Positions 14,379-28,567 of a stretch of 64,000 nucleotides of DNA are shown here, piece by piece. Under the pieces are notes generated by a model. It did not search any database. It was given only the letters and a program-made list of their open reading frames with translations, and was not told where the DNA came from. Origin of the DNA: a virus (taxonomy: Duplodnaviria > Caudoviricetes); IMG/VR virus record IMGVR_UViG_3300010163_000003, positions 1-64,000 of that record. One strand, 5' to 3'. Within the stretch, counting starts at the first letter, position 1. Every line of letters begins with the position of its first letter. Both the position numbers and the translations under genes were made by a program.

Positions 14379-14456
14379 CCAGGTTTAGCGCAGTTTGGCT
14401 AGCGTACATGCTTTGGGAGCATGGGGTCGTGAGTTCAAATCTCACAACCTGGACCA
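14379..14456 (+). tRNA. tRNA-Pro(UGG)
   Basis: Acceptor ccaggtt/aacctgg, anticodon arm catgc-tttggga-gcatg, T-arm gttcaaatc, CCA. Confidence 0.92.
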
Positions 14457-19039: not shown

Positions 19040-19114
19040 AGAGGTATAGCCAAGAGGTAAGGCACTAGACTTTGACTCTATTATACGCAGGTTCGAATCC
19101 TGCTACCTCTGCCA
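19040..19114 (+). tRNA. tRNA-Gln(UUG)
   Basis: Acceptor agaggta/tacctct, anticodon loop ctttgac, ggttcgaatcc, CCA. Confidence 0.9.
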
Positions 19115-19193
19115 TGGACGAAAGTCCAATGAACGGTGAGAATTCGCCCTTCGTATTTTATCTTCTTTTATGGGTGGCTAACGCCACCCGTAT

Positions 19194-19268
19194 GGTCCGT
19201 TAGGCAAGCGGTTAAGCCACAGCCCTTTCAAGGCTGCATCGTGGGTTCAAATCCCGCACGGATCACCA
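19194..19268 (+). tRNA. tRNA-Glu(UUC)
   Basis: Anticodon arm cagcc-ctttcaa-ggctg, ggttcaaatcc, CCA. Confidence 0.92.
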
Positions 19269-19375
19269 CTCATGTCTCATTCCTCCAGTACAAGACATGA
19301 AACTTGCTGAATTGGGCATAATATTTGTTATGCCCAACATGCCGCTGTGGTGGAACAGGTAGACGCAAGGGACTT

Positions 19376-19985
19376 CGACAATTCTAGAAGAGGTGACAAG
19401 ACAATGAAAGTTATTAACATTTATACATGCCCCGATGGAAGAGTTAGGGCATATTGTAGAGATGATAATAATAATGTAAAAATTGTTTCGTACCCTCGAA
19501 TTCTAATGGAAGAGAAATTGGGCAGACCATTAGAGCCATATGAAGATGTTCATCATATCGATGGAAATAAGTTAAATAACTCTATTGATAATCTTGCTTT
19601 AATTAATCATGGGGATCATCAAAAAATGCATATGGAACATGACACAAAATATCATAATAAAGAAATGACTTGTGATGTGTGTGGTAAAACTTTCATATGG
19701 ACTATAAAATCCCAAAGAAATTATTATTGTGATTTGAATAGAGGCAAAAATAGAATTATATCTTGTTCCAGAAAATGTAGCTCTTATTATGGTAGACAGG
19801 AGCAGCTTGGGAGGAATCCCAAGGCTGAATGCGGGCTAAACGGTGAACCCTTTCCCAATGGGAATACCGTGCCAAATAAGTGAAAACTTATGTGTGTAGA
19901 GAATATACACCCGCCATCCAGAACGGATGAAGATTGATTCCAGACCACAAAACTTTAAATAGGTAGCGAAAGCTATAGTGGTACG
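19376..19985 (+). ncRNA. Group I intron in the tRNA-Leu anticodon, HNH-containing
   Basis: U|...G| boundaries inside the anticodon; R-like gtagagaata about 19895-19904 and S-like aagattgattcc about 19930-19941. Confidence 0.8.
19404..19883 (+). CDS. Intron-encoded HNH homing endonuclease
   Basis: R.LMEEKLGRPL...VHHIDGNKLNN..DNL HNH motif plus C-terminal CxxC..CS..C; gaggtg RBS before ATG 19404. Confidence 0.85.
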   Translation: MKVINIYTCPDGRVRAYCRDDNNNVKIVSYPRILMEEKLGRPLEPYEDVHHIDGNKLNNSIDNLALINHGDHQKMHMEHDTKYHNKEMTCDVCGKTFIWTIKSQRNYYCDLNRGKNRIISCSRKCSSYYGRQEQLGRNPKAECGLNGEPFPNGNTVPNK

Positions 19986-20950: not shown

Positions 20951-21490
20951 ATGGCTAGTTATCCAGGCGCACGTAGAATATGGAATAAACATAGCGAATT
21001 CGCTGGCAAAGCTGATGCTGACAAGGTTCAAAAAGAAATTGACCTTATTGCATCTCAAGACCCTAACGGCAAATGTACCGATGAAGGATTGGTAGACTAT
21101 GCAAGAAACAATCCTAACAGCGAATCTCATAACTGCTTCGAGTGGAACGACACAACTGCGGCAGAAAAATACAGATTACATCAAGCTGCTCGTATTAAAG
21201 TTTCCATCATAACTGTATACGACAAAACTGACAAAGATACTGAAAGCAGCGTCAATCAAAATACGAGCGTCCCAATTCAGGTAGTTACTAACCATGCTTT
21301 AAAGACACCAGGAGATGGGCATAAGAATATTGAATTCATTCTTCAGGACAAGAATGATTCAAAAGTTCTTGACGAACAAATGAAGCAAGCATGCATTCAG
21401 TTCATGGATAATTTTGAACGTAGATGGTGTCTTGCCCCATCATTCAATCAAGTATTCCCCAAACTACAAGCATTCGTAAACTCGTTATAA
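20951..21490 (+). CDS. Conserved phage protein (H.CFEW.D..AAEKYRLHQA motif), candidate accessory of the Cas7-like locus
   Basis: gaggag RBS; motif recognised by eye; sits immediately upstream of the pentamer array. Confidence 0.65.
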   Translation: MASYPGARRIWNKHSEFAGKADADKVQKEIDLIASQDPNGKCTDEGLVDYARNNPNSESHNCFEWNDTTAAEKYRLHQAARIKVSIITVYDKTDKDTESSVNQNTSVPIQVVTNHALKTPGDGHKNIEFILQDKNDSKVLDEQMKQACIQFMDNFERRWCLAPSFNQVFPKLQAFVNSL

Positions 21491-21530: not shown

Positions 21531-21791
21531 ACATGCCAAAATAGGCAATCTTAAATTATCATAGCACACGCTAACATATTATAATATAATACAAAAAATT
21601 AAATCAATAAGCGAGGTCATGACCTCAATACACCAAATGTTACGATAATAAGATTTCAACATAAACTACTTTATTGTAATTTATAATATTGATGTTCGTG
21701 GCTTCGCTTATTGATTTAATAATCAATAAATTTAGATCAAACTATCCTAAATGAAGCAAAAATATGATATTATATTATACCGTAAAATAGA
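21531..21791 (+). repeat. Pentamer (NYA-NN) array part 1: three modules (21531-21595, 21625-21685, 21732-21791), module 2 enclosed by a long stem
   Basis: A at every 5th base, e.g. tta ga|tca aa|cta tc|cta aa|tga ag|caa aa|ata tg|ata tt|ata tt|ata cc|gta aa|ata ga; stem 21598-21630/21687-21720 with G-U pairs. Confidence 0.85.
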
Positions 21792-21801
21792 GGATTTAAA
21801 T

Positions 21802-22011
21802 ATGGATGAAAACGAAAATGTAACTATTTGTTGTGATTGTCAATATTGTTGCGACAAATATAGTTTCCCATTACCAAATGATATACCCGAATTTAACGGA
21901 AATAATTTTCTTCTTAAAGCATATTGTTGTTGTATGGAAGATTGTGAGCTATACGGCAAACGTATTGATATGCTTGGGATTACTTCCTGTGAATATTTTA
22001 AAGAATTATAG
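21802..22011 (+). CDS. Small Cys-rich hypothetical protein inside the array
   Basis: gagg RBS before ATG 21802; CCDC.YCC, CCC..DC. Confidence 0.55.
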   Translation: MDENENVTICCDCQYCCDKYSFPLPNDIPEFNGNNFLLKAYCCCMEDCELYGKRIDMLGITSCEYFKEL

Positions 22012-22024
22012 GAGAGATAGTTAG

Positions 22025-22561
22025 TTGATATATAAAACAACAGTTTATATTCCAAGTGGAACGATTGAGAGAGTAAACAGTTTACTTTGTGCTCTTTCTT
22101 TTAAAGATCTTTCTGAAAAAGAAATTAGCAAATATAAGTTTAGAACCAACTCATGTGAAACTATTTTTAATGTGAAGTTCGAAGATAATAGCACATTAAC
22201 ATATGAATTATGTTCTGGCGATTCTAATTATTATGACAATGTTGTATGGAGAAGCGCTGATGGGATTGAAGAAACAATAGAATGTTCTTTCAGATTATTC
22301 AATGAGATAGAAATTGAAATCAATTCAAACAAATATATTGTTAATCTCATAGAAAATCCTCCTGAACATGGCAAAAAAAGATTAAACGTTACTGTGAATT
22401 GTTTAGCTACTTATAATAGTAGCATACTCGTTCCATATACTATGAATCTTGAAGAAGCTATACAATATGCTGAAAAACATATTGATGATATACCCCTTGG
22501 TTTATTGGAATATGTGTCAGACAGTGACAGTATCGATGAAGAAAATTGCAGTTTCGATTAA
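22025..22561 (+). CDS. Hypothetical protein inside the array
   Basis: ggag RBS, TTG start, 178 aa. Confidence 0.55.
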   Translation: MIYKTTVYIPSGTIERVNSLLCALSFKDLSEKEISKYKFRTNSCETIFNVKFEDNSTLTYELCSGDSNYYDNVVWRSADGIEETIECSFRLFNEIEIEINSNKYIVNLIENPPEHGKKRLNVTVNCLATYNSSILVPYTMNLEEAIQYAEKHIDDIPLGLLEYVSDSDSIDEENCSFD

Positions 22562-22607
22562 TAAGCTTTAGCTAGCTTTTAGCTAATTTTCTAGCTAAAA
22601 GCTAGCT

Positions 22608-23680
22608 TTATAGCTTCAAATATTGACTTAAGTATTGTAAGTCGATAAACGAGATTTAGTCTCAATACATGCTATACTATCATAATGTATAACACTATAT
22701 CACACGACAATATATAATATCTTAAGTCAATATTTGAAGCTATAAGTTTCAAAACAGGCCAAAATAGTCTAGCTTAGAATACTATCAGCGTACTATAGGA
22801 TATATTAAAACATTTTATGGTCTCAAATATTGACTTTAAGTCAATGACATCCTATTACAACCCATCTCAACTTAGCTTATAATAGCATAAAATAATATAT
22901 AGTAATATTATTACTTAAAGTCAATATTTGAGACCATAAAGGTCAGCAGATTACAAACTAAGCTTAATTTAGGGTAAATTAAAGTAGGACAATTTTAGCA
23001 TATGCTAGGATATTTTACTTTATGGTTTCAAATATTAGCTTTAAGCTAAAATACAAGCTATGCAATCCTAAAATAAATTAGCACAATCTATGCTATTATA
23101 TGACACTATAAAATATTTAGCTTAAGTCAATATTTGAAACCATAAATTTTTATGGTTTAAGACAAAACGCCATAAAATACGATAGCACATGTAATCATAT
23201 GCAACCATAGGACATGCTATCATAAGATATTTTACTTTATGGTTTCAAATATTGACTTAAGTTAATAACAGAAAAGAGATGTATAATAATGACTATATTA
23301 CTGACTTATCTGGTTTTTGTAATAAAAAATTCCCAGTTGAAAAACATTTTTATGTTAAAACTAATATTTAAGGTCATAAACCTTATCAGAATGTAATGTA
23401 ATCTATCGCATCTCATGACAACATATGGCACCTTAACATAATATAAAACAGTTTATGATCTTAAATATTAGTTTTAGCTAATAATAACAAACAAAAATAC
23501 TATATGATAAAACACTTCATTATAATTTAGACCAAAGTAAAAATAATACAAAGTATTTTATATGTAGACACCGCTACTTTTACAAAAGTAGCGGTGTGTG
23601 CTTATAAAAGCAAGCTTAAAGTAGGTCATTTAAAAATAGTTTAGCACATCCCACCTTAAGCTAATATAGCACATAATATC
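22608..23680 (+). repeat. Pentamer (NYA-NN) array part 2: nine modules separated by alternating-orientation ~26-bp repeats
   Basis: Modules 22662-22721, 22749-22814, 22842-22906, 22943-23019, 23053-23117, 23172-23236, 23383-23452, 23487-23562, 23611-23680; repeat consensus tttatggtYtcaaatattgacttaag. Confidence 0.9.
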
Positions 23681-23714: not shown

Positions 23715-24446
23715 ATGGCCACAAAAACTAAAGACGAAAACAACACTCCTATTGAAGAAAAGCTTACTCCGGGCACAGTTATCAAAATGAAACCCTTTGT
23801 TAAGGAACGACTTCAGGTAACTATTTGCAGCGATGACCACTGCGATCTTATTTTGAATAAGATGACACAAGAAGCTATTGAAGAAATCAAAAGCACACAA
23901 ACTAAGACGGCTAAGGGCACAAAGAAAGCGGTCAATATGTGGCAAAGGCTTATTGAGGGCCTGCATTGGATGGACAAGTATACTGGCCCGTATGTAGATG
24001 ATAAAGGCAAAATTCTGCATACAGAAGAAGCATACTATGACCTACTTAAAACCAATCGTATCGGTTACGATGCAAGTGGCATCAAGAAGGGTCTCTGCGA
24101 TGCGGCTGTTCGTGTACTTGGCGAATCTAAATCTACCATTATCAATGCCAATCTTCAGGTTATTCCTGAGAAGAGAAATCTCGTTCAGATTGAATTCAAC
24201 GAGAGTGATATTGATGAATCCGTAATCACTAACTGGAAAGGCTCTGCTTTCATTACCTATCGTACTATCCTGCGCGGATGGTCTAGTACATTTGCTGTAG
24301 AATATCTGCCAGATAATTTGTCTCGTGATCAGGTTATCGAGATGTTCCAGGCGATGGGATTTAGCGGCGGTCTTGGCGCACATCGTGTTGGGCTTAAAGG
24401 CGGCACTCATGGTAAATTCCATGTAGATAAGGTAATGCAACTCTAA
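23715..24446 (+). CDS. Stand-alone Cas7/RAMP-like RNA-binding protein (Vipr-like candidate), 243 aa
   Basis: ggagg RBS; internal IGYDASGIKKGLCDAA helix, YR..L.GW...F.VEY strand, C-terminal Gly-rich loop GFSGGLGAHR..LKGGTHGKFHV. Confidence 0.7.
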   Translation: MATKTKDENNTPIEEKLTPGTVIKMKPFVKERLQVTICSDDHCDLILNKMTQEAIEEIKSTQTKTAKGTKKAVNMWQRLIEGLHWMDKYTGPYVDDKGKILHTEEAYYDLLKTNRIGYDASGIKKGLCDAAVRVLGESKSTIINANLQVIPEKRNLVQIEFNESDIDESVITNWKGSAFITYRTILRGWSSTFAVEYLPDNLSRDQVIEMFQAMGFSGGLGAHRVGLKGGTHGKFHVDKVMQL

Positions 24447-26101: not shown

Positions 26102-26728
26102 ATGAACACAAAAAGAGTAATGCGAGGAATTTGTACACTGTGTCTCGTAGGAGCAGCATCTATCTTCTCAGCCGGAGCTTCATCTACAGAGACAAAAATC
26201 GTTATGGATCTTAAAGCTAAACAAATATCTGAGCAAGTTAAAATTATGGAGACTGCACACGATATGGCTGAATGTGCTAGAGCATTAGGCGAAAATGAAA
26301 ATAGCGTCGTTATACATACAGCGAAAGATTATTATAATGACGCTATGAACGCCCATAAGACTTTTTCTTCTGAATATGAAACTCTTTCTAACATGTATAA
26401 TGCTGAAGTTAAAGCAGAAGAAGAACAACGTCAAAAAGGTTCTTATATTGGCAAGTTTCTCGTTAGCGCCTATACTCCTTCTCCAAGCGAAAATGGAGGA
26501 TATGCTGTAACATGTACAGGCGTACCGCTTGCAGGGAACGAATGGGCATTATGTGCCGTAGACCCTAATGTTATTCCTCTTGGTTCTACTATTTATATTG
26601 AAGGCGTAGGTAATGTACGATGCCAGGATACAGGCGGGGCCATTAAAGGAAATCGAATTGACCTTCTGGTCGGATATGGAGAAGCAAATCGATGGGGAGT
26701 ACAAACAAGAAACGTATATTTAAGGTAA
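26102..26728 (+). CDS. Secreted 3D-domain (cell-wall lytic transglycosylase-like) protein
   Basis: Signal-peptide-like N-terminus; SAY, AVDPNVIPLGS, DTGGAIKGNRID motifs. Confidence 0.88.
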   Translation: MNTKRVMRGICTLCLVGAASIFSAGASSTETKIVMDLKAKQISEQVKIMETAHDMAECARALGENENSVVIHTAKDYYNDAMNAHKTFSSEYETLSNMYNAEVKAEEEQRQKGSYIGKFLVSAYTPSPSENGGYAVTCTGVPLAGNEWALCAVDPNVIPLGSTIYIEGVGNVRCQDTGGAIKGNRIDLLVGYGEANRWGVQTRNVYLR

Positions 26729-26894
26729 AAGATATGGCAATAAAATATGTTATAGAATATTCTAGCGTAAATGGGACAGTAGAAACATTTTGTGACAATT
26801 ATCATGATTTCGAACAAAACTTATTTGCTGATGTAGAAAGAGAAGTTCGAAGAGGCGCTACTGAAATTAGAGTTACTATTGCTGGCGATAAAAA

Positions 26895-27458
26895 ATGATT
26901 ACAGTTAAACCATTAGAATGGTATCCATGTGGGAATACAGGATGTATTGCATCATCTATGTCTGTTGACGTTGGACTTAAATTAATTATTGATATTCGAT
27001 ATTTTATAGAGCCTACAAAAAATGGATATGATGCAATTTTAATGTTTAAAATAGAAACAAATTATGAACATTTCGATACCATTGAAGAGGCAAAAGCTTA
27101 TTGCGATCAAGAAAATCAAAAATTTTGGCAAGAAGTATATGAGCGAATGCTAAGTAATGTGATAACAATAACTGCTCTGCCAAACATTGAAAAACGCGGT
27201 GAAATTATGAAACTTATTGATGCTAATCATTTAGTGTTTAATGCTGAAAACGAAAGATATGCAACTATGCGTGAAATTGCCAACGAACCTAAAGTAGACC
27301 CAGTTCATGCGGCAGGCGCATGCTATTGCAAAGAATGCAAACATTGCTTCTATGACGAAATTAACAAACATAATTATTGCAACCGCCCTCTTGGTTTAAT
27401 TGGGTATTCAATCGTAAGAGGCGATGATTTTTGTAGTCATGGAGAAAAGAAAAACTAA
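26895..27458 (+). CDS. Hypothetical protein, C-terminal CxxC domain
   Basis: ORF; VDPVHAAGACYCKECKHC..DDFCSHGE type phage domain. Confidence 0.55.
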   Translation: MITVKPLEWYPCGNTGCIASSMSVDVGLKLIIDIRYFIEPTKNGYDAILMFKIETNYEHFDTIEEAKAYCDQENQKFWQEVYERMLSNVITITALPNIEKRGEIMKLIDANHLVFNAENERYATMREIANEPKVDPVHAAGACYCKECKHCFYDEINKHNYCNRPLGLIGYSIVRGDDFCSHGEKKN

Positions 27459-27472
27459 TCTATAAAATAATA

Positions 27473-27538
27473 CATGGTGCGTTCCTCTCTCTTTTATGTT
27501 ATAATATTTATAGCTATTAAGAGGAGGAACGCACCATG
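27473..27538 (+). promoter_or_regulatory. RBS/start-sequestering hairpin with an internal extended -10 promoter
   Basis: catggtgcgttcctc (27473-27487) pairs with gaggaacgcaccatg (27524-27538); TGnTATAAT at 27497-27505 in the loop. Confidence 0.7.
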
Positions 27539-28567
27539 AACGCTTCTGAGAAAAAGGCCATAGTTAAACGTGCATGTGAGATTATTTACTCTAACGAGGG
27601 TGACTATGGCTCTGTAAACAAGAATGACAATGGTGCTTTGTCAATAGGCAAAGTGCAATGGCACGCAGATAGAGCATTATCTCTTTTAAGAGATATCATT
27701 AAAGCTAACGAATCTCAAGCTAAGACAATCTTAGGGGATACTCTTTTTAATGAAATTAAAACTACTACCAGCAATTGGAGTAATCGTATAGTTAATACAA
27801 TCGAAGCAAACTGCATTACTAAATTACTCATAACAAGTGCCGGTAAAAAAGTACAGGATAAGCTTGCTGAGAAAGATGTAGAAAGCTATATTGATATTGG
27901 AATATCTTATGGTATTCAAGATCCCGATTCTCTTATCTACTTTGCTGATGGAATCAATCAATATGGTTCATATTCTAAAGTGTGGAAAAATATCGCTATT
28001 AAATCTGTACATAATGGTGATACGTTAGACTCTATACATGCCGCAGCATCTTCCATGGCAAGTCAGTATATCTCTAGACGTATTAAGACATATAACATCA
28101 TTAAAGGGCATAATACAGTAAGTAAATCTAATACCTACACTAAATATAAAGACTCAAATAAAGTAAAATACATACAAGGTTGGGTAAATACTCAATTATT
28201 AGGTACTAACTTTACAGCTTTAAGTGTAGATGGCGTTATAGGTCTTAAAACTAAAGCCGGGATTGTTAAGTGTTTACAACAGTGTTTAAATCATGAATTT
28301 AATGCCAATCTTGATGTGGATGGAATATTTGGTCGCATGACGCAAATAGCATGCCCTACGGTTACTACATATAAGTGCAATTCTGGAGATATAGTTCACA
28401 TCATACAATTTGCTTTATATTGTAACGATATAGAGATAGATAAGTTTGATTATTATTATGGCTCTAAAACTGCTAATGCTGTAGGGATATTTCAAAGACG
28501 TAACAATTTACCGATTACCGAACGAGTTGATGATACAGTCTTTAAGTCGCTATTCGATGGCTTTTAA
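27536..28567 (+). CDS. Putative endolysin: lysozyme-like N-terminal domain plus peptidoglycan-binding repeats
   Basis: NEGDYGSVN.NDNGALSIGK.QWH; L.VDG.IG..T and L.VDGIFG..T PG-binding motifs. Confidence 0.75.
   Translation: MNASEKKAIVKRACEIIYSNEGDYGSVNKNDNGALSIGKVQWHADRALSLLRDIIKANESQAKTILGDTLFNEIKTTTSNWSNRIVNTIEANCITKLLITSAGKKVQDKLAEKDVESYIDIGISYGIQDPDSLIYFADGINQYGSYSKVWKNIAIKSVHNGDTLDSIHAAASSMASQYISRRIKTYNIIKGHNTVSKSNTYTKYKDSNKVKYIQGWVNTQLLGTNFTALSVDGVIGLKTKAGIVKCLQQCLNHEFNANLDVDGIFGRMTQIACPTVTTYKCNSGDIVHIIQFALYCNDIEIDKFDYYYGSKTANAVGIFQRRNNLPITERVDDTVFKSLFDGF

What the first reader, a model, noticed from the sequence alone, without database searches (positions are those of the whole stretch)
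21531..23680. Ten further guide modules with undecoded targets
NN strings read from sequence: M1 tg aa gg tc aa tc gc cg ac tt at at aa; M3 ga aa tc aa ag aa tg tt tt cc aa ga; M4 at tg ta tc at ta ct tc cg at ta tc; M6 tg tc tt ac tc ac gc ta gc aa at ta at; M8 ag tg tc aa aa gc at tg tt tg ct aa tt; M9 aa cg gc tg tc tg cc gg tg tc ag tt ct; M12 gc aa gg tt aa gt gc tc cc ag at gc ta tc. M2, M7 and M11 contain slips. All are different, as expected of a guide repertoire. I could not assign these by eye. They may hit other phage genes, host defence genes or self promoters. How new guides are written into such an interleaved code is an open mechanistic question.
Basis: partly seen in the sequence, partly recalled or inferred. 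Interest (0 to 1): 0.75.

Follow-up and report, generated by a model that had tools for sequence, protein, structure and literature searches.

The report
Phage VIPR guide array, A-anchored units
The five-base-periodic tracts are guide RNAs of a VIPR system (a CRISPR-related phage silencer first described in 2026) carried by a 218-kb phage. Three of the ten "undecoded" guides spell conserved motifs in genes of a rival family of temperate phages, and seven still have no target.

Summary
Window 21531-23680 holds 12 tracts of 9-17 phased pentamers, (A/N)-Y-A-N-N, on the + strand only. Nothing like them occurs elsewhere in the 218-kb genome or in shuffles.

The gene just downstream (23715-24446) folds as a lone Cas7/RAMP protein, and its best sequence match in the PDB is the SUSP1 Vipr protein. 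So this is a VIPR system (bioRxiv 10.64898/2026.04.26.720920), a known kind. It is a variant: the fixed trimer is WYA instead of GGY, and the units are separated by alternately oriented 25-28-nt arms that fold into long hairpins. This scan noted the same A-anchored variant earlier on other DNA.

Three of the ten modules now decode, all in frame:
- M7 matches an Enc34-type ssDNA-binding protein gene (25/26).
- M9 matches the N-terminus of an HNH endonuclease gene (24/28).
- M11 matches the N-terminus of a Cro/C1-type HTH_26 regulator gene (22/22, with 42 exact hits in IMG/VR).

Together with M5 and M10 (DNA polymerase A motifs B and C), five guides converge on one family of temperate Firmicutes phages. 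The jumbo phage has no PolA gene and no self-targets.

M1, M2, M3, M4, M6, M8 and M12 stay at chance everywhere I searched.

The parts
20951..21490 (+). Gene for a conserved ~180-aa protein just upstream of the array. It is a candidate accessory (vap-like) gene of unknown fold.
   Evidence: Homologues (37-55% identity) sit upstream of the array in six relatives (alignment A2). It matches phrog_15946 only and has no Pfam or NCBIfam hit.
21531..21595 (+). M1: 13 pentamers, NN = TG AA GG TC AA TC GC CG AC TT AT AT AA. Undecoded.
   Evidence: Register. Best match in 45 target genomes is 19/26, at null. A 10-NN seed has 0 exact hits in IMG/VR. No homologue in 11 relatives.
21625..21690 (+). M2: 13 pentamers with one 1-nt slip (t at 21655). 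It lies between arms 21598-21622 and 21696-21720. Undecoded.
   Evidence: (inverted repeat I13). Best match 19/26, at null.
21732..21791 (+). M3: 12 pentamers ending at the ribosome-binding site of the 69-aa Cys-rich ORF (21802-22011). Undecoded; it may be a leader or promoter as well as, or instead of, a guide.
   Evidence: Best match 19/24; 50 of 400 null strings do as well.
22608..23476 (+). Punctuation arms of ~25-28 nt in alternating orientation (consensus TTTATGGTTTCAAATATTGACTTAAG): 22608/22721, 22814/22913, 23019/23124, 23236, 23356/23451. They are the handles flanking each guide and pair into long stems in a precursor RNA.
   Evidence: Arm pairs are 91-100% complementary, with changes that differ from pair to pair. 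RNA 22600-22950 folds into two long hairpins at -103 kcal/mol, z = -10.3. The arms are the only part of the array conserved in relatives, at 85-95%.
22662..22721 (+). M4: 12 NN (AT TG TA TC AT TA CT TC CG AT TA TC), in the loop of hairpin 1. Undecoded.
   Evidence: Best match 17-18/24, at null. A 10-NN seed in metagenome contigs gave 2 hits, neither in a credible coding frame, so chance.
22749..22804 (+). M5 (context only, not one of the ten): 11 NN read through a 1-nt slip. It spells PolA motif B, KGK(V/I)AELALGY.
   Evidence: 21/22 in several target genomes; null maximum 19. A homologous guide in relative L003 shares 21 of 22 NN letters.
22842..22906 (+). M6: 13 NN, in the loop of hairpin 2. 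Undecoded.
   Evidence: Best match 18/26, at null. A 9-NN seed gave 1 hit in IMG/VR with no extension, 18/26.
22943..23009 (+). M7: 13 NN (GC TT AA AG | AT GG AA AA GG AT | GC TG GG) read through two 6-nt units. DECODED: it spells AFNSNGNKGIACG of an Enc34-type ssDNA-binding protein gene next to PolA in rival temperate phages.
   Evidence: 25/26 in G026 and 24/26 in G013. It reaches at least 80% in 12 of the 15 added genomes and at 25 sites in the first 30 genomes; null maximum 21. The target ORF L133:16516-17064 matches PF10991 at 4.7e-77.
23053..23117 (+). M8: 13 NN, in the loop of hairpin 3. Undecoded.
   Evidence: Best match 19/26, at null. A 9-NN seed gave 6 hits in IMG/VR with chance-level extension (20-21/26), most with stops in the reading frames.
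23157..23226 (+). M9: 14 NN (AG AA CC AA CG GC TG TC TG CC GG TG TC AG). DECODED: it matches the N-terminus (R/K)KPKRPCSYPGCP of an HNH endonuclease gene of the same rival phages.
   Evidence: 24/28 (86%) in G023 and G026, and 22-24/28 in all five genomes G021-G025; null maximum 23, and 0 of 400 nulls reach 24. The target ORF L133:5425-5805 matches PF01844 at 2.7e-15.
23388..23447 (+). M10 (context only, not one of the ten): 12 NN. Its reverse complement spells PolA motif C, FIVGHVHDEIII.
   Evidence: An 11-NN seed has 25 exact hits in IMG/VR. 24/24 in target genomes. The target ORF matches PF00476.
23487..23541 (+). M11: 11 NN (AA AA CT TG AA CT TT AT GA AA AA). DECODED: it spells the N-terminal (N)KLWKLLIDK(K/N) of Cro/C1-type HTH_26 regulators of temperate phages.
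   Evidence: A 10-NN seed has 42 exact hits in IMG/VR, 40 of them in frame in this one protein family. 22/22 in many genomes. The target matches PF13443 at 3.7e-18. Orthologous guides occur in relatives L003, L005, L151 and L152.
23611..23680 (+). M12: 14 NN, lying between a hairpin (23556-23609) and the ribosome-binding site of the Vipr-like gene. Undecoded.
   Evidence: (I12). Best match 19-20/28, at null. A 10-NN seed has 0 exact hits in IMG/VR.
23715..24446 (+). Vipr-like gene: a lone Cas7/RAMP-fold protein of 243 aa.
   Evidence: AF2 model with pLDDT 84.8. All of the top ~30 Foldseek hits are Csm3, Cmr4 or type VII Cas7, best E = 1e-6. VIA-align gives Z 10.9, and its top 19 hits are all Cas7-family RAMPs. 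The family profile's best PDB sequence hit is SUSP1 Vipr 36pp_D, E = 0.0033.

Best explanation
The region is the guide-RNA (vrRNA) array of a VIPR system carried by a complete 218-kb phage.

Proposed mechanism. Each tract is transcribed from the + strand. One Vipr protomer (the product of 23715-24446) binds each pentamer, sequesters the fixed W-Y-A trimer and presents the two variable bases. The presented NN pairs read double-stranded DNA by the 1-nt-skip rule (NNxNNx), where the skipped base falls on the codon wobble position. A guide therefore recognises a conserved protein motif whatever the synonymous variation, and binding silences the target gene.

What the guides aim at. Three of the ten modules (M7, M9, M11), together with M5 and M10, aim at one family of temperate Firmicutes phages. 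Their targets are the ssDNA-binding protein, DNA polymerase A (twice), an HNH endonuclease and a Cro-like regulator. The array is therefore a weapon against competing (pro)phages.

The other seven modules have the same anatomy. Most likely they are guides whose targets are not in the sequence I could search with mismatches allowed.

Shown here: the periodicity, the protein fold, the target matches and their reading frame, the absence of self-targets, and conservation of NN between relatives.

Inferred from the VIPR papers: transcription, RNP formation, silencing, and processing at the long stems.
For: - Periodicity is unique to this region and absent from shuffles.
- The protein has a Cas7/RAMP fold, and its best PDB sequence hit is SUSP1 Vipr.
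- Only the 1-nt-skip, forward reading gives signal for M7 and M10. Skips of 0, 2 or 3 nt and reversed readings do not.
- On 30 target genomes, M5 scores 21/22, M7 24/26, M9 24/28, M10 24/24 and M11 22/22. None of 400 null strings per guide reaches these.
- The result is replicated on 15 further whole genomes, and all five guides hit each of G021-G025.
- All matches are in frame with the skip base at wobble.
- Target genes are named by Pfam.
- Exact seeds in IMG/VR: 25 hits for M10 and 42 for M11, against well under one expected by my own rough estimate from the pattern's information content and an assumed collection size.
- The phage has no PF00476 PolA gene and no self-match above null.
- Relatives' guides hit the same target phages: 28 windows at 18/20 or better, against 0 in shuffles.
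- In orthologous guides NN is conserved while trimer positions 1-2 have drifted.
Against: - Seven of the ten modules have no match above chance. I searched the phage's own genome, 45 target genomes (about 1.85 Mb), 9 relatives' loci, and exact seeds in IMG/VR or metagenomes.
- M3 and M12 abut ribosome-binding sites, and M1 contains a sigma-70-like promoter match. Some tracts may therefore have another role, or a second one.
- No expression, processing or binding data exist for this phage, and its host is unknown.
- The fixed trimer differs from the published GGY, so the binding mode is inferred by analogy.
- M9's best match (86%) is only just above the published 80% threshold.
Confidence: 0.88

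Rival explanations
1. Some of the seven undecoded tracts are not targeting guides. M3 and M12, which end at ribosome-binding sites, and M1, just after a terminator, could be promoter or leader regions, or Vipr-binding operators that regulate the downstream genes. Others could be decayed or decoy vrRNAs that titrate Vipr.
For: M3 ends 10 nt before ATG 21802 and M12 ends 34 nt before ATG 23715. Sigma-70-like promoter matches lie inside M1, M4, M6 and M10, although their number is no higher than in shuffles. None of these tracts has a target or a homologue in relatives. Decoy and solo vrRNAs are described for VIPR (abstract of bioRxiv 10.64898/2026.10.15.759431).
Against: Their pentamer phasing is as strict as in the decoded guides. 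M10 also contains a promoter-like match and yet decodes perfectly. In relatives, too, only a minority of guides hit the small target set, about 6 of 33. Missing targets are therefore expected from database limits alone.
Confidence: 0.2
2. The tracts act at the DNA level. They would be iterons, bendable DNA or binding sites for a DNA-binding protein (origin, partition or packaging site), and the target matches would be coincidental.
For: The region is AT-rich and non-coding, with flexible YR steps every half helical turn. HU-like genes lie near the arrays in some relatives.
Against: The variable letters of five tracts spell conserved protein motifs of one phage family in frame, with 25 and 42 exact database hits for two of them and nulls never reaching the observed scores. 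Between relatives the NN letters are conserved and not the trimers. The motif is strand-specific and co-oriented with a RAMP gene.
Confidence: 0.02
3. The protein and array work as an anti-CRISPR or decoy. On this reading a Cas7 mimic and repeat-like RNAs poison a host type I or type III complex and do not guide anything themselves.
For: Phages are known to carry cas-gene homologues and repeat-like RNAs that act as anti-CRISPRs (title and abstract of bioRxiv 10.1101/2023.06.24.545427; the rest is my own knowledge). The fold matches Csm3 and Cmr4.
Against: The arms are inverted, not direct CRISPR-like repeats. The 5-nt unit does not fit the 6-nt Cas7 register. The NN letters carry specific information against rival phage genes. 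The closest sequence relative in the PDB is Vipr, not a Cas7.
Confidence: 0.03

Closest known systems
Type II VIPR systems of Escherichia phage SUSP1 and the Pseudomonas fulva prophage (bioRxiv 10.64898/2026.04.26.720920; structures in 10.64898/2026.04.26.720927)
   Same: - A lone small RAMP protein sits next to long non-coding DNA.
- vrRNAs consist of 9-16 pentamers, each with a fixed trimer and a variable NN.
- Targets are read by the 1-nt-skip rule, on either strand, with the skip base at codon wobble.
- Targets lie in competing phages, including a lysis-lysogeny-type regulator.
- There is no self-targeting.
- A conserved handle follows each guide.
   Different: - The fixed trimer is W-Y-A (position 3 is A in ~98% of units, position 2 is T or C) and not G-G-Y.
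- The two SUSP1 residues that read the guanines are replaced: D177 by Ala222 and W178 by His223. R138 and R179 are kept.
- Guides are separated by alternately oriented arms that form 25-28-bp stems, where the published systems have a hairpin or pseudoknot tail.
- Occasional 6-nt units are read through.
- The carrier is a 218-kb phage that itself lacks the targeted polymerase.
- The protein shares only about 20 bits of sequence similarity with SUSP1 Vipr.
Non-canonical VIPR arrays found by entropy periodicity (bioRxiv 10.64898/2026.10.21.760802: GAC/NN, CAC/NN, WGT/NN, TGH/NN)
   Same: A five-base period, a fixed trimer other than GGY, and a Vipr-like fold encoded nearby.
   Different: The passages I read do not name an A-Y-A trimer. 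Those clusters are reported with ~10 repeats and no targets, whereas this array has 9-17 repeats and five decoded guides.
Class 1 CRISPR crRNA-Cas7 filaments (type III Csm3/Cmr4)
   Same: The protein has the RRM core with a glycine-rich loop, and its structural neighbours are Csm3 and Cmr4. By analogy with published VIPR it would make one protomer per short RNA register; this was not shown here.
   Different: The register is 5 nt with only 2 pairing bases, against 6 nt with 5 pairing bases. There are no direct repeats and spacers, and none of the five genes scanned around the array matches a cas family (no NCBIfam hit); adaptation genes were not specifically sought. Guides recognise protein motifs through a gapped code.

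Membership tests
VIPR system | A lone Vipr protein: a small RAMP with an RRM core, G-loop and thumb | tested here: met
   AF2 model with pLDDT 84.8. Foldseek and VIA-align top hits are all Cas7-family RAMPs, Z up to 10.9. The family profile's best PDB sequence hit is SUSP1 Vipr, E = 0.0033, over the G-loop. The C-terminal GGxGAHRxGxKGGTNG motif is invariant in 34 homologues.
VIPR system | Adjacent non-coding tracts of about 9-16 tandem pentamers, each with a fixed trinucleotide and a hypervariable NN | tested here: met
   Twelve tracts of 9-17 units, with the same design in 11 relatives. The fixed trimer is WYA, not GGY.
VIPR system | The canonical GGY fixed motif | tested here: not met
   Position 3 is A in 99% of units, position 2 is T 63% / C 32%, and position 1 is A 53%. 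Non-GGY variants are accepted as VIPR in bioRxiv 10.64898/2026.10.21.760802, so this makes it a variant and does not exclude it.
VIPR system | NN pairs specify targets by the 1-nt-skip rule, with at least 80% NN match in other mobile elements and the skip base at wobble | tested here: met
   Met for M5, M7, M9, M10 and M11 at 86-100%, all in frame. Other skip lengths fail. Not shown for M1, M2, M3, M4, M6, M8 and M12.
VIPR system | No self-targeting at 80% NN or better | tested here: met
   Best self matches are within shuffled-order nulls for every module; the longer modules (12 or more NN) score 62-75%, while short half-pieces reach 79-93% with nulls equally high. The phage has no PolA gene.
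VIPR system | A conserved structured 3' tail or handle after each guide | tested here: inconclusive
   Conserved ~26-nt arms follow each guide, some with small local hairpins. They alternate in orientation, however, and the ends of the mature RNAs are unknown.
VIPR system | An accessory vap gene | tested here: inconclusive
   A ~180-aa protein is conserved upstream of the array in all six relatives compared. It has no family hit and was not compared with vap1-6.
VIPR system | vrRNAs are expressed and co-purify with Vipr, and targets are silenced | not testable with these tools
   This needs sRNA-seq, pull-down and reporter assays.
CRISPR-Cas (class 1) | An array of direct repeats and spacers, together with other cas genes | tested here: not met
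   No direct-repeat/spacer array is present; the repeats are inverted arms. Rfam gives no crRNA or ribozyme hit. The neighbouring genes have no cas family hit.

The most novel reading that the evidence does not exclude
The W-Y-A handle, together with the D177-to-Ala and W178-to-His changes in the G-loop, would define a re-specified Vipr that is orthogonal to GGY systems. Its guides would be released from a hairpin-punctuated precursor by a double-strand-specific RNase, a processing route not described for VIPR. Some or all of the seven undecoded guides, notably the three inside hairpin loops (M4, M6, M8), would address non-phage targets such as host defence or host regulatory genes.
Probability: 0.2. 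Interest if true: 0.6.

Novelty: new variant of a known kind. Interest (0 to 1): 0.45.

Why it matters
- It extends the newly described VIPR systems to a clade of ~200-kb gut and environmental phages that use a different fixed trimer and a different array punctuation.
- It shows a natural guide set concentrated on the replication module and switch regulator of a very widespread family of temperate Firmicutes phages. This is concrete evidence of phage-against-phage RNA-guided silencing outside the Enterobacteria and Pseudomonas examples.
- The altered base-reading residues suggest how the handle specificity of Vipr can be changed.
- The seven guides without targets are a defined list for wider searches.

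Tried and rejected
**Searches on the region itself**
- blastn of the region against GenBank phages gave no match.
- Rfam gave nothing relevant, and no hammerhead ribozymes between guides.
- My first ideas were a promoter/terminator array, iterons, or a TRAP-like RNA operator. I dropped them once the protein fold and the target matches were in hand.

**Tests of the guide strings**
- Self-genome search under NN. and contiguous readings gave nothing.
- Skip lengths of 0, 2 and 3 nt and reversed (parallel) readings gave nothing for any guide, including the positive controls.
- Local partial-match scoring found no partial hits for the undecoded guides.
- Relatives' loci tested as targets gave nothing.

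**Exact seeds in the large collections**
- M1 and M12, 10 NN in IMG/VR: 0 hits each.
- M9, 10 NN in 185,579 species genomes: 3 hits in unrelated MAGs (Chloroflexota, Terriglobales, Deltaproteobacteria), consistent with chance.
- M8, 9 NN in IMG/VR: 6 chance-level hits.
- M6, 9 NN in IMG/VR: 1 chance hit.
- M4, 10 NN in metagenome contigs: 2 hits, neither in a credible coding frame.

**Other attempts**
- Motifs that other scan notes reported for similar arrays (HsdM AFGDAYEYLM and KKGGEFYTP) do not fit any undecoded guide, checked by hand.
- tblastn of the Vipr-like protein against GenBank phages gave no match.
- Drawing prokaryote relatives for a mismatch-tolerant genome search is not possible for a virus record.
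Full report
**Observation**

The window is the first 64 kb of a complete 218,431-bp phage genome with direct terminal repeats. Between 21531 and 23680 the + strand carries 12 tracts in which a pyrimidine followed by A recurs every five bases for 9-17 units.

- Windows with at least 10 of 12 phased YA occur nowhere else in the genome, on either strand.
- The region has 40 such windows. There were none in 300 dinucleotide-preserving shuffles, whose best score was 9. YA autocorrelation peaks at lags 5 and 10.
The last two or three units of M5, M7, M9 and M10 belong to a conserved handle.
- M7 has two one-base insertions and M2 has one. M11 needs none.

The tracts are separated by ~26-nt arms in alternating orientation. 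The arm pairs are 91-100% complementary, with changes that differ from pair to pair. RNA 22600-22950 folds into two long hairpins (z = -10.3).

**What it is**

The gene immediately downstream (23715-24446, 243 aa) has no Pfam, PHROG-named or NCBIfam family. It has 70 homologues on metagenomic contigs, several of them ~200 kb long.

- An AlphaFold model built on 34 of these homologues has pLDDT 84.8.
- All of the top ~30 Foldseek PDB hits are Csm3, Cmr4 or type VII Cas7, with a best E of 1e-6.
- An independent all-against-all structural search gives Z 10.9, and its top 19 hits are all Cas7-family RAMPs.
- A profile of the family has the SUSP1 Vipr protein (36pp_D) as its best sequence match in the whole PDB, E = 0.0033, across the glycine-rich loop.

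Every relative whose upstream DNA I could fetch carries the same kind of phased array in front of the gene: 11 loci at 54-77% protein identity. One distant 310-aa homologue (L004) does not.

**The published system**

Two notes from this scan, and a literature search made in the same turn, led to the 2026 preprints on VIPR systems. I then read them.

- A VIPR system is a lone ancestral RAMP (Vipr) plus vrRNAs made of 9-16 pentamers, each with a fixed GGY and a variable NN.
- One protomer binds per pentamer.
- The NN pairs read double-stranded DNA while skipping every third base, which usually falls on the codon wobble position.
- Natural targets are competing phages, satellites and prophages. 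There are no self-targets.

The array here is therefore a member of a known kind with a different fixed trimer. Position 3 is A in ~98% of units, position 2 is T or C, and position 1 is weakly A.

In the HMMER alignment to SUSP1 Vipr, the arginines R138 and R179 are kept (Arg183, Arg224). The two residues the structure paper assigns to reading the guanines, D177 and W178, are replaced by Ala222 and His223, which are nearly invariant in this clade. That the replacement explains the changed trimer is my inference.

**Testing the guides**

I used M10, not one of the ten, as a positive control. An 11-NN core written with N at each skip has 25 exact matches in IMG/VR. All are motif C (FIVGHVHDEIII) of family-A DNA polymerase genes on 12-55-kb viral and proviral contigs.

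I fetched whole contigs of these elements, and later of elements found through M11. This gave a local set of 45 genomes, about 1.85 Mb. I scored every guide against it, with shuffled-order and random-composition nulls.

| Guide | Best match | Target |
|---|---|---|
| M7 (read through its two 6-nt units) | 25/26; at least 80% in 12 of the 15 added genomes | AFNSNGNKGIACG of an Enc34-type ssDNA-binding protein gene (PF10991) beside PolA |
| M9 | 24/28 | N-terminus (R/K)KPKRPCSYPGCP of an HNH endonuclease gene (PF01844) |
| M11 | 22/22 | N-terminal KLWKLLIDK(K/N) of Cro/C1-type HTH_26 regulators (PF13443) |
| M5 (context) | 21/22 | PolA motif B |
| M10 (context) | 24/24 | PolA motif C |

- M11's 10-NN seed has 42 exact IMG/VR hits, 40 of them in frame in that one protein family.
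- None of 400 null strings per guide reached the observed score on the first 30 genomes, and none of 200 did on the 15 added genomes.
- All matches are in frame with the skip base at wobble.
- Only the 1-nt skip in the forward sense works.
- All five guides hit each of the five genomes G021-G025.

The targeted DUF2800-SSB-PolA module is common in temperate phages of Streptococcus, Staphylococcus, Ruminococcus, Erysipelothrix and other Firmicutes. The jumbo phage has no PolA gene of its own and no self-match above chance. Guides of relatives hit the same target genomes: 28 ten-NN windows at 18/20 or better, against none for shuffled windows.

**The seven that remain**

M1, M2, M3, M4, M6, M8 and M12 score at the null level in every search:
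- the phage's own genome;
- the 45 target genomes;
- relatives' loci;
- other skip rules.

Exact seeds for M1, M12, M8, M6 and M4 in IMG/VR or metagenome contigs gave either nothing or hits that behave as chance. Those hits had no extension, stops in frame, or lay outside a credible coding frame. None of the seven has a homologue in 11 relatives.

Their phasing is as strict as that of the decoded guides. In relatives, too, only a minority of guides match my small target set. The simplest reading is that the targets lie outside the sequence I could search with mismatches allowed. M3 and M12 end at ribosome-binding sites and may have a regulatory role, either as well or instead.

**Relatives and substitutions**

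- At the level of whole arrays this holds. The arms are 85-95% conserved while the guide strings are unrelated.
- For the few orthologous guides the pattern is the reverse: M5 in L003, and M11 in L003, L005, L151 and L152. There, NN differs at 1-4 of 22 letters, trimer positions 1-2 differ at 12-14 of 22, and the A at position 3 is kept (Fisher p 4e-4 to 5e-3).
- So the information lies in the NN letters and the anchoring A, and selection holds a guide on its target.
- The one NN change in the M5 pair (GT to AT, Val to Ile) matches the KGKIAEL variant seen in target polymerases.

**Verdict**

What is particular here:
- the W-Y-A handle with matching changes in the protein's G-loop;
- the hairpin-forming, alternately oriented punctuation;
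- the tolerance of 6-nt units;
- a five-guide attack on one temperate-phage family.

This scan had already noted A-anchored VIPR arrays on other DNA (e1-5664253, e1-5708434). How new guides arise remains open. The saturated trimers of orthologous guides are compatible with ordinary descent under selection on NN, and they do not require a special writing mechanism.

Noticed in passing
L004:1-4300: The most distant homologue of the Vipr-like protein (310 aa, 44% identity) keeps the ~180-aa partner gene upstream. It has no N-Y-A-N-N tracts in the 9.5 kb I fetched. It may use another fixed trimer, or keep its array elsewhere.
   Followed up: no
L002:4369-4473, L007:6952-7021, L007:7572-7646, L007:7785-7869: Guides of related jumbo phages match the same PolA-bearing temperate phages at 18-20 of 20 NN letters, at sites other than those hit by this window's guides. 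The L002 guide runs for 17 or more NN on G001.
   Followed up: partly
window 21802-22011 and 22025-22561: Two small ORFs sit inside the array: a 69-aa Cys-rich one and a 178-aa one. Neither has any family hit. The Cys-rich ORF is 77% identical at the DNA level to a gene in relative L005, where it lies in a different position relative to the array.
   Followed up: partly
L003:1491-1775, L007:4567-4839, L148:209-487, L149:1110-1385: HU-type (Bac_DNA_binding) genes lie a few kb upstream of the arrays in four relatives.
   Followed up: no
window 14379-14456, 19040-19268, 19347-19883: tRNA-Pro, tRNA-Gln and tRNA-Glu genes, with an HNH endonuclease ORF (PHROG HNH families, E = 7e-19) directly after the tRNA pair.
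   Followed up: no
window 26102-28567: Cell-wall-related genes lie downstream of the cassette: a 3D domain protein (26102-26728) and a protein with peptidoglycan-binding domains (27536-28567).
   Followed up: no
window 23263-23355: The stretch between the arm at 23236-23262 and the arm at 23356-23381 has no phased tract, although a module would be expected there. It may be a decayed unit.
   Followed up: no
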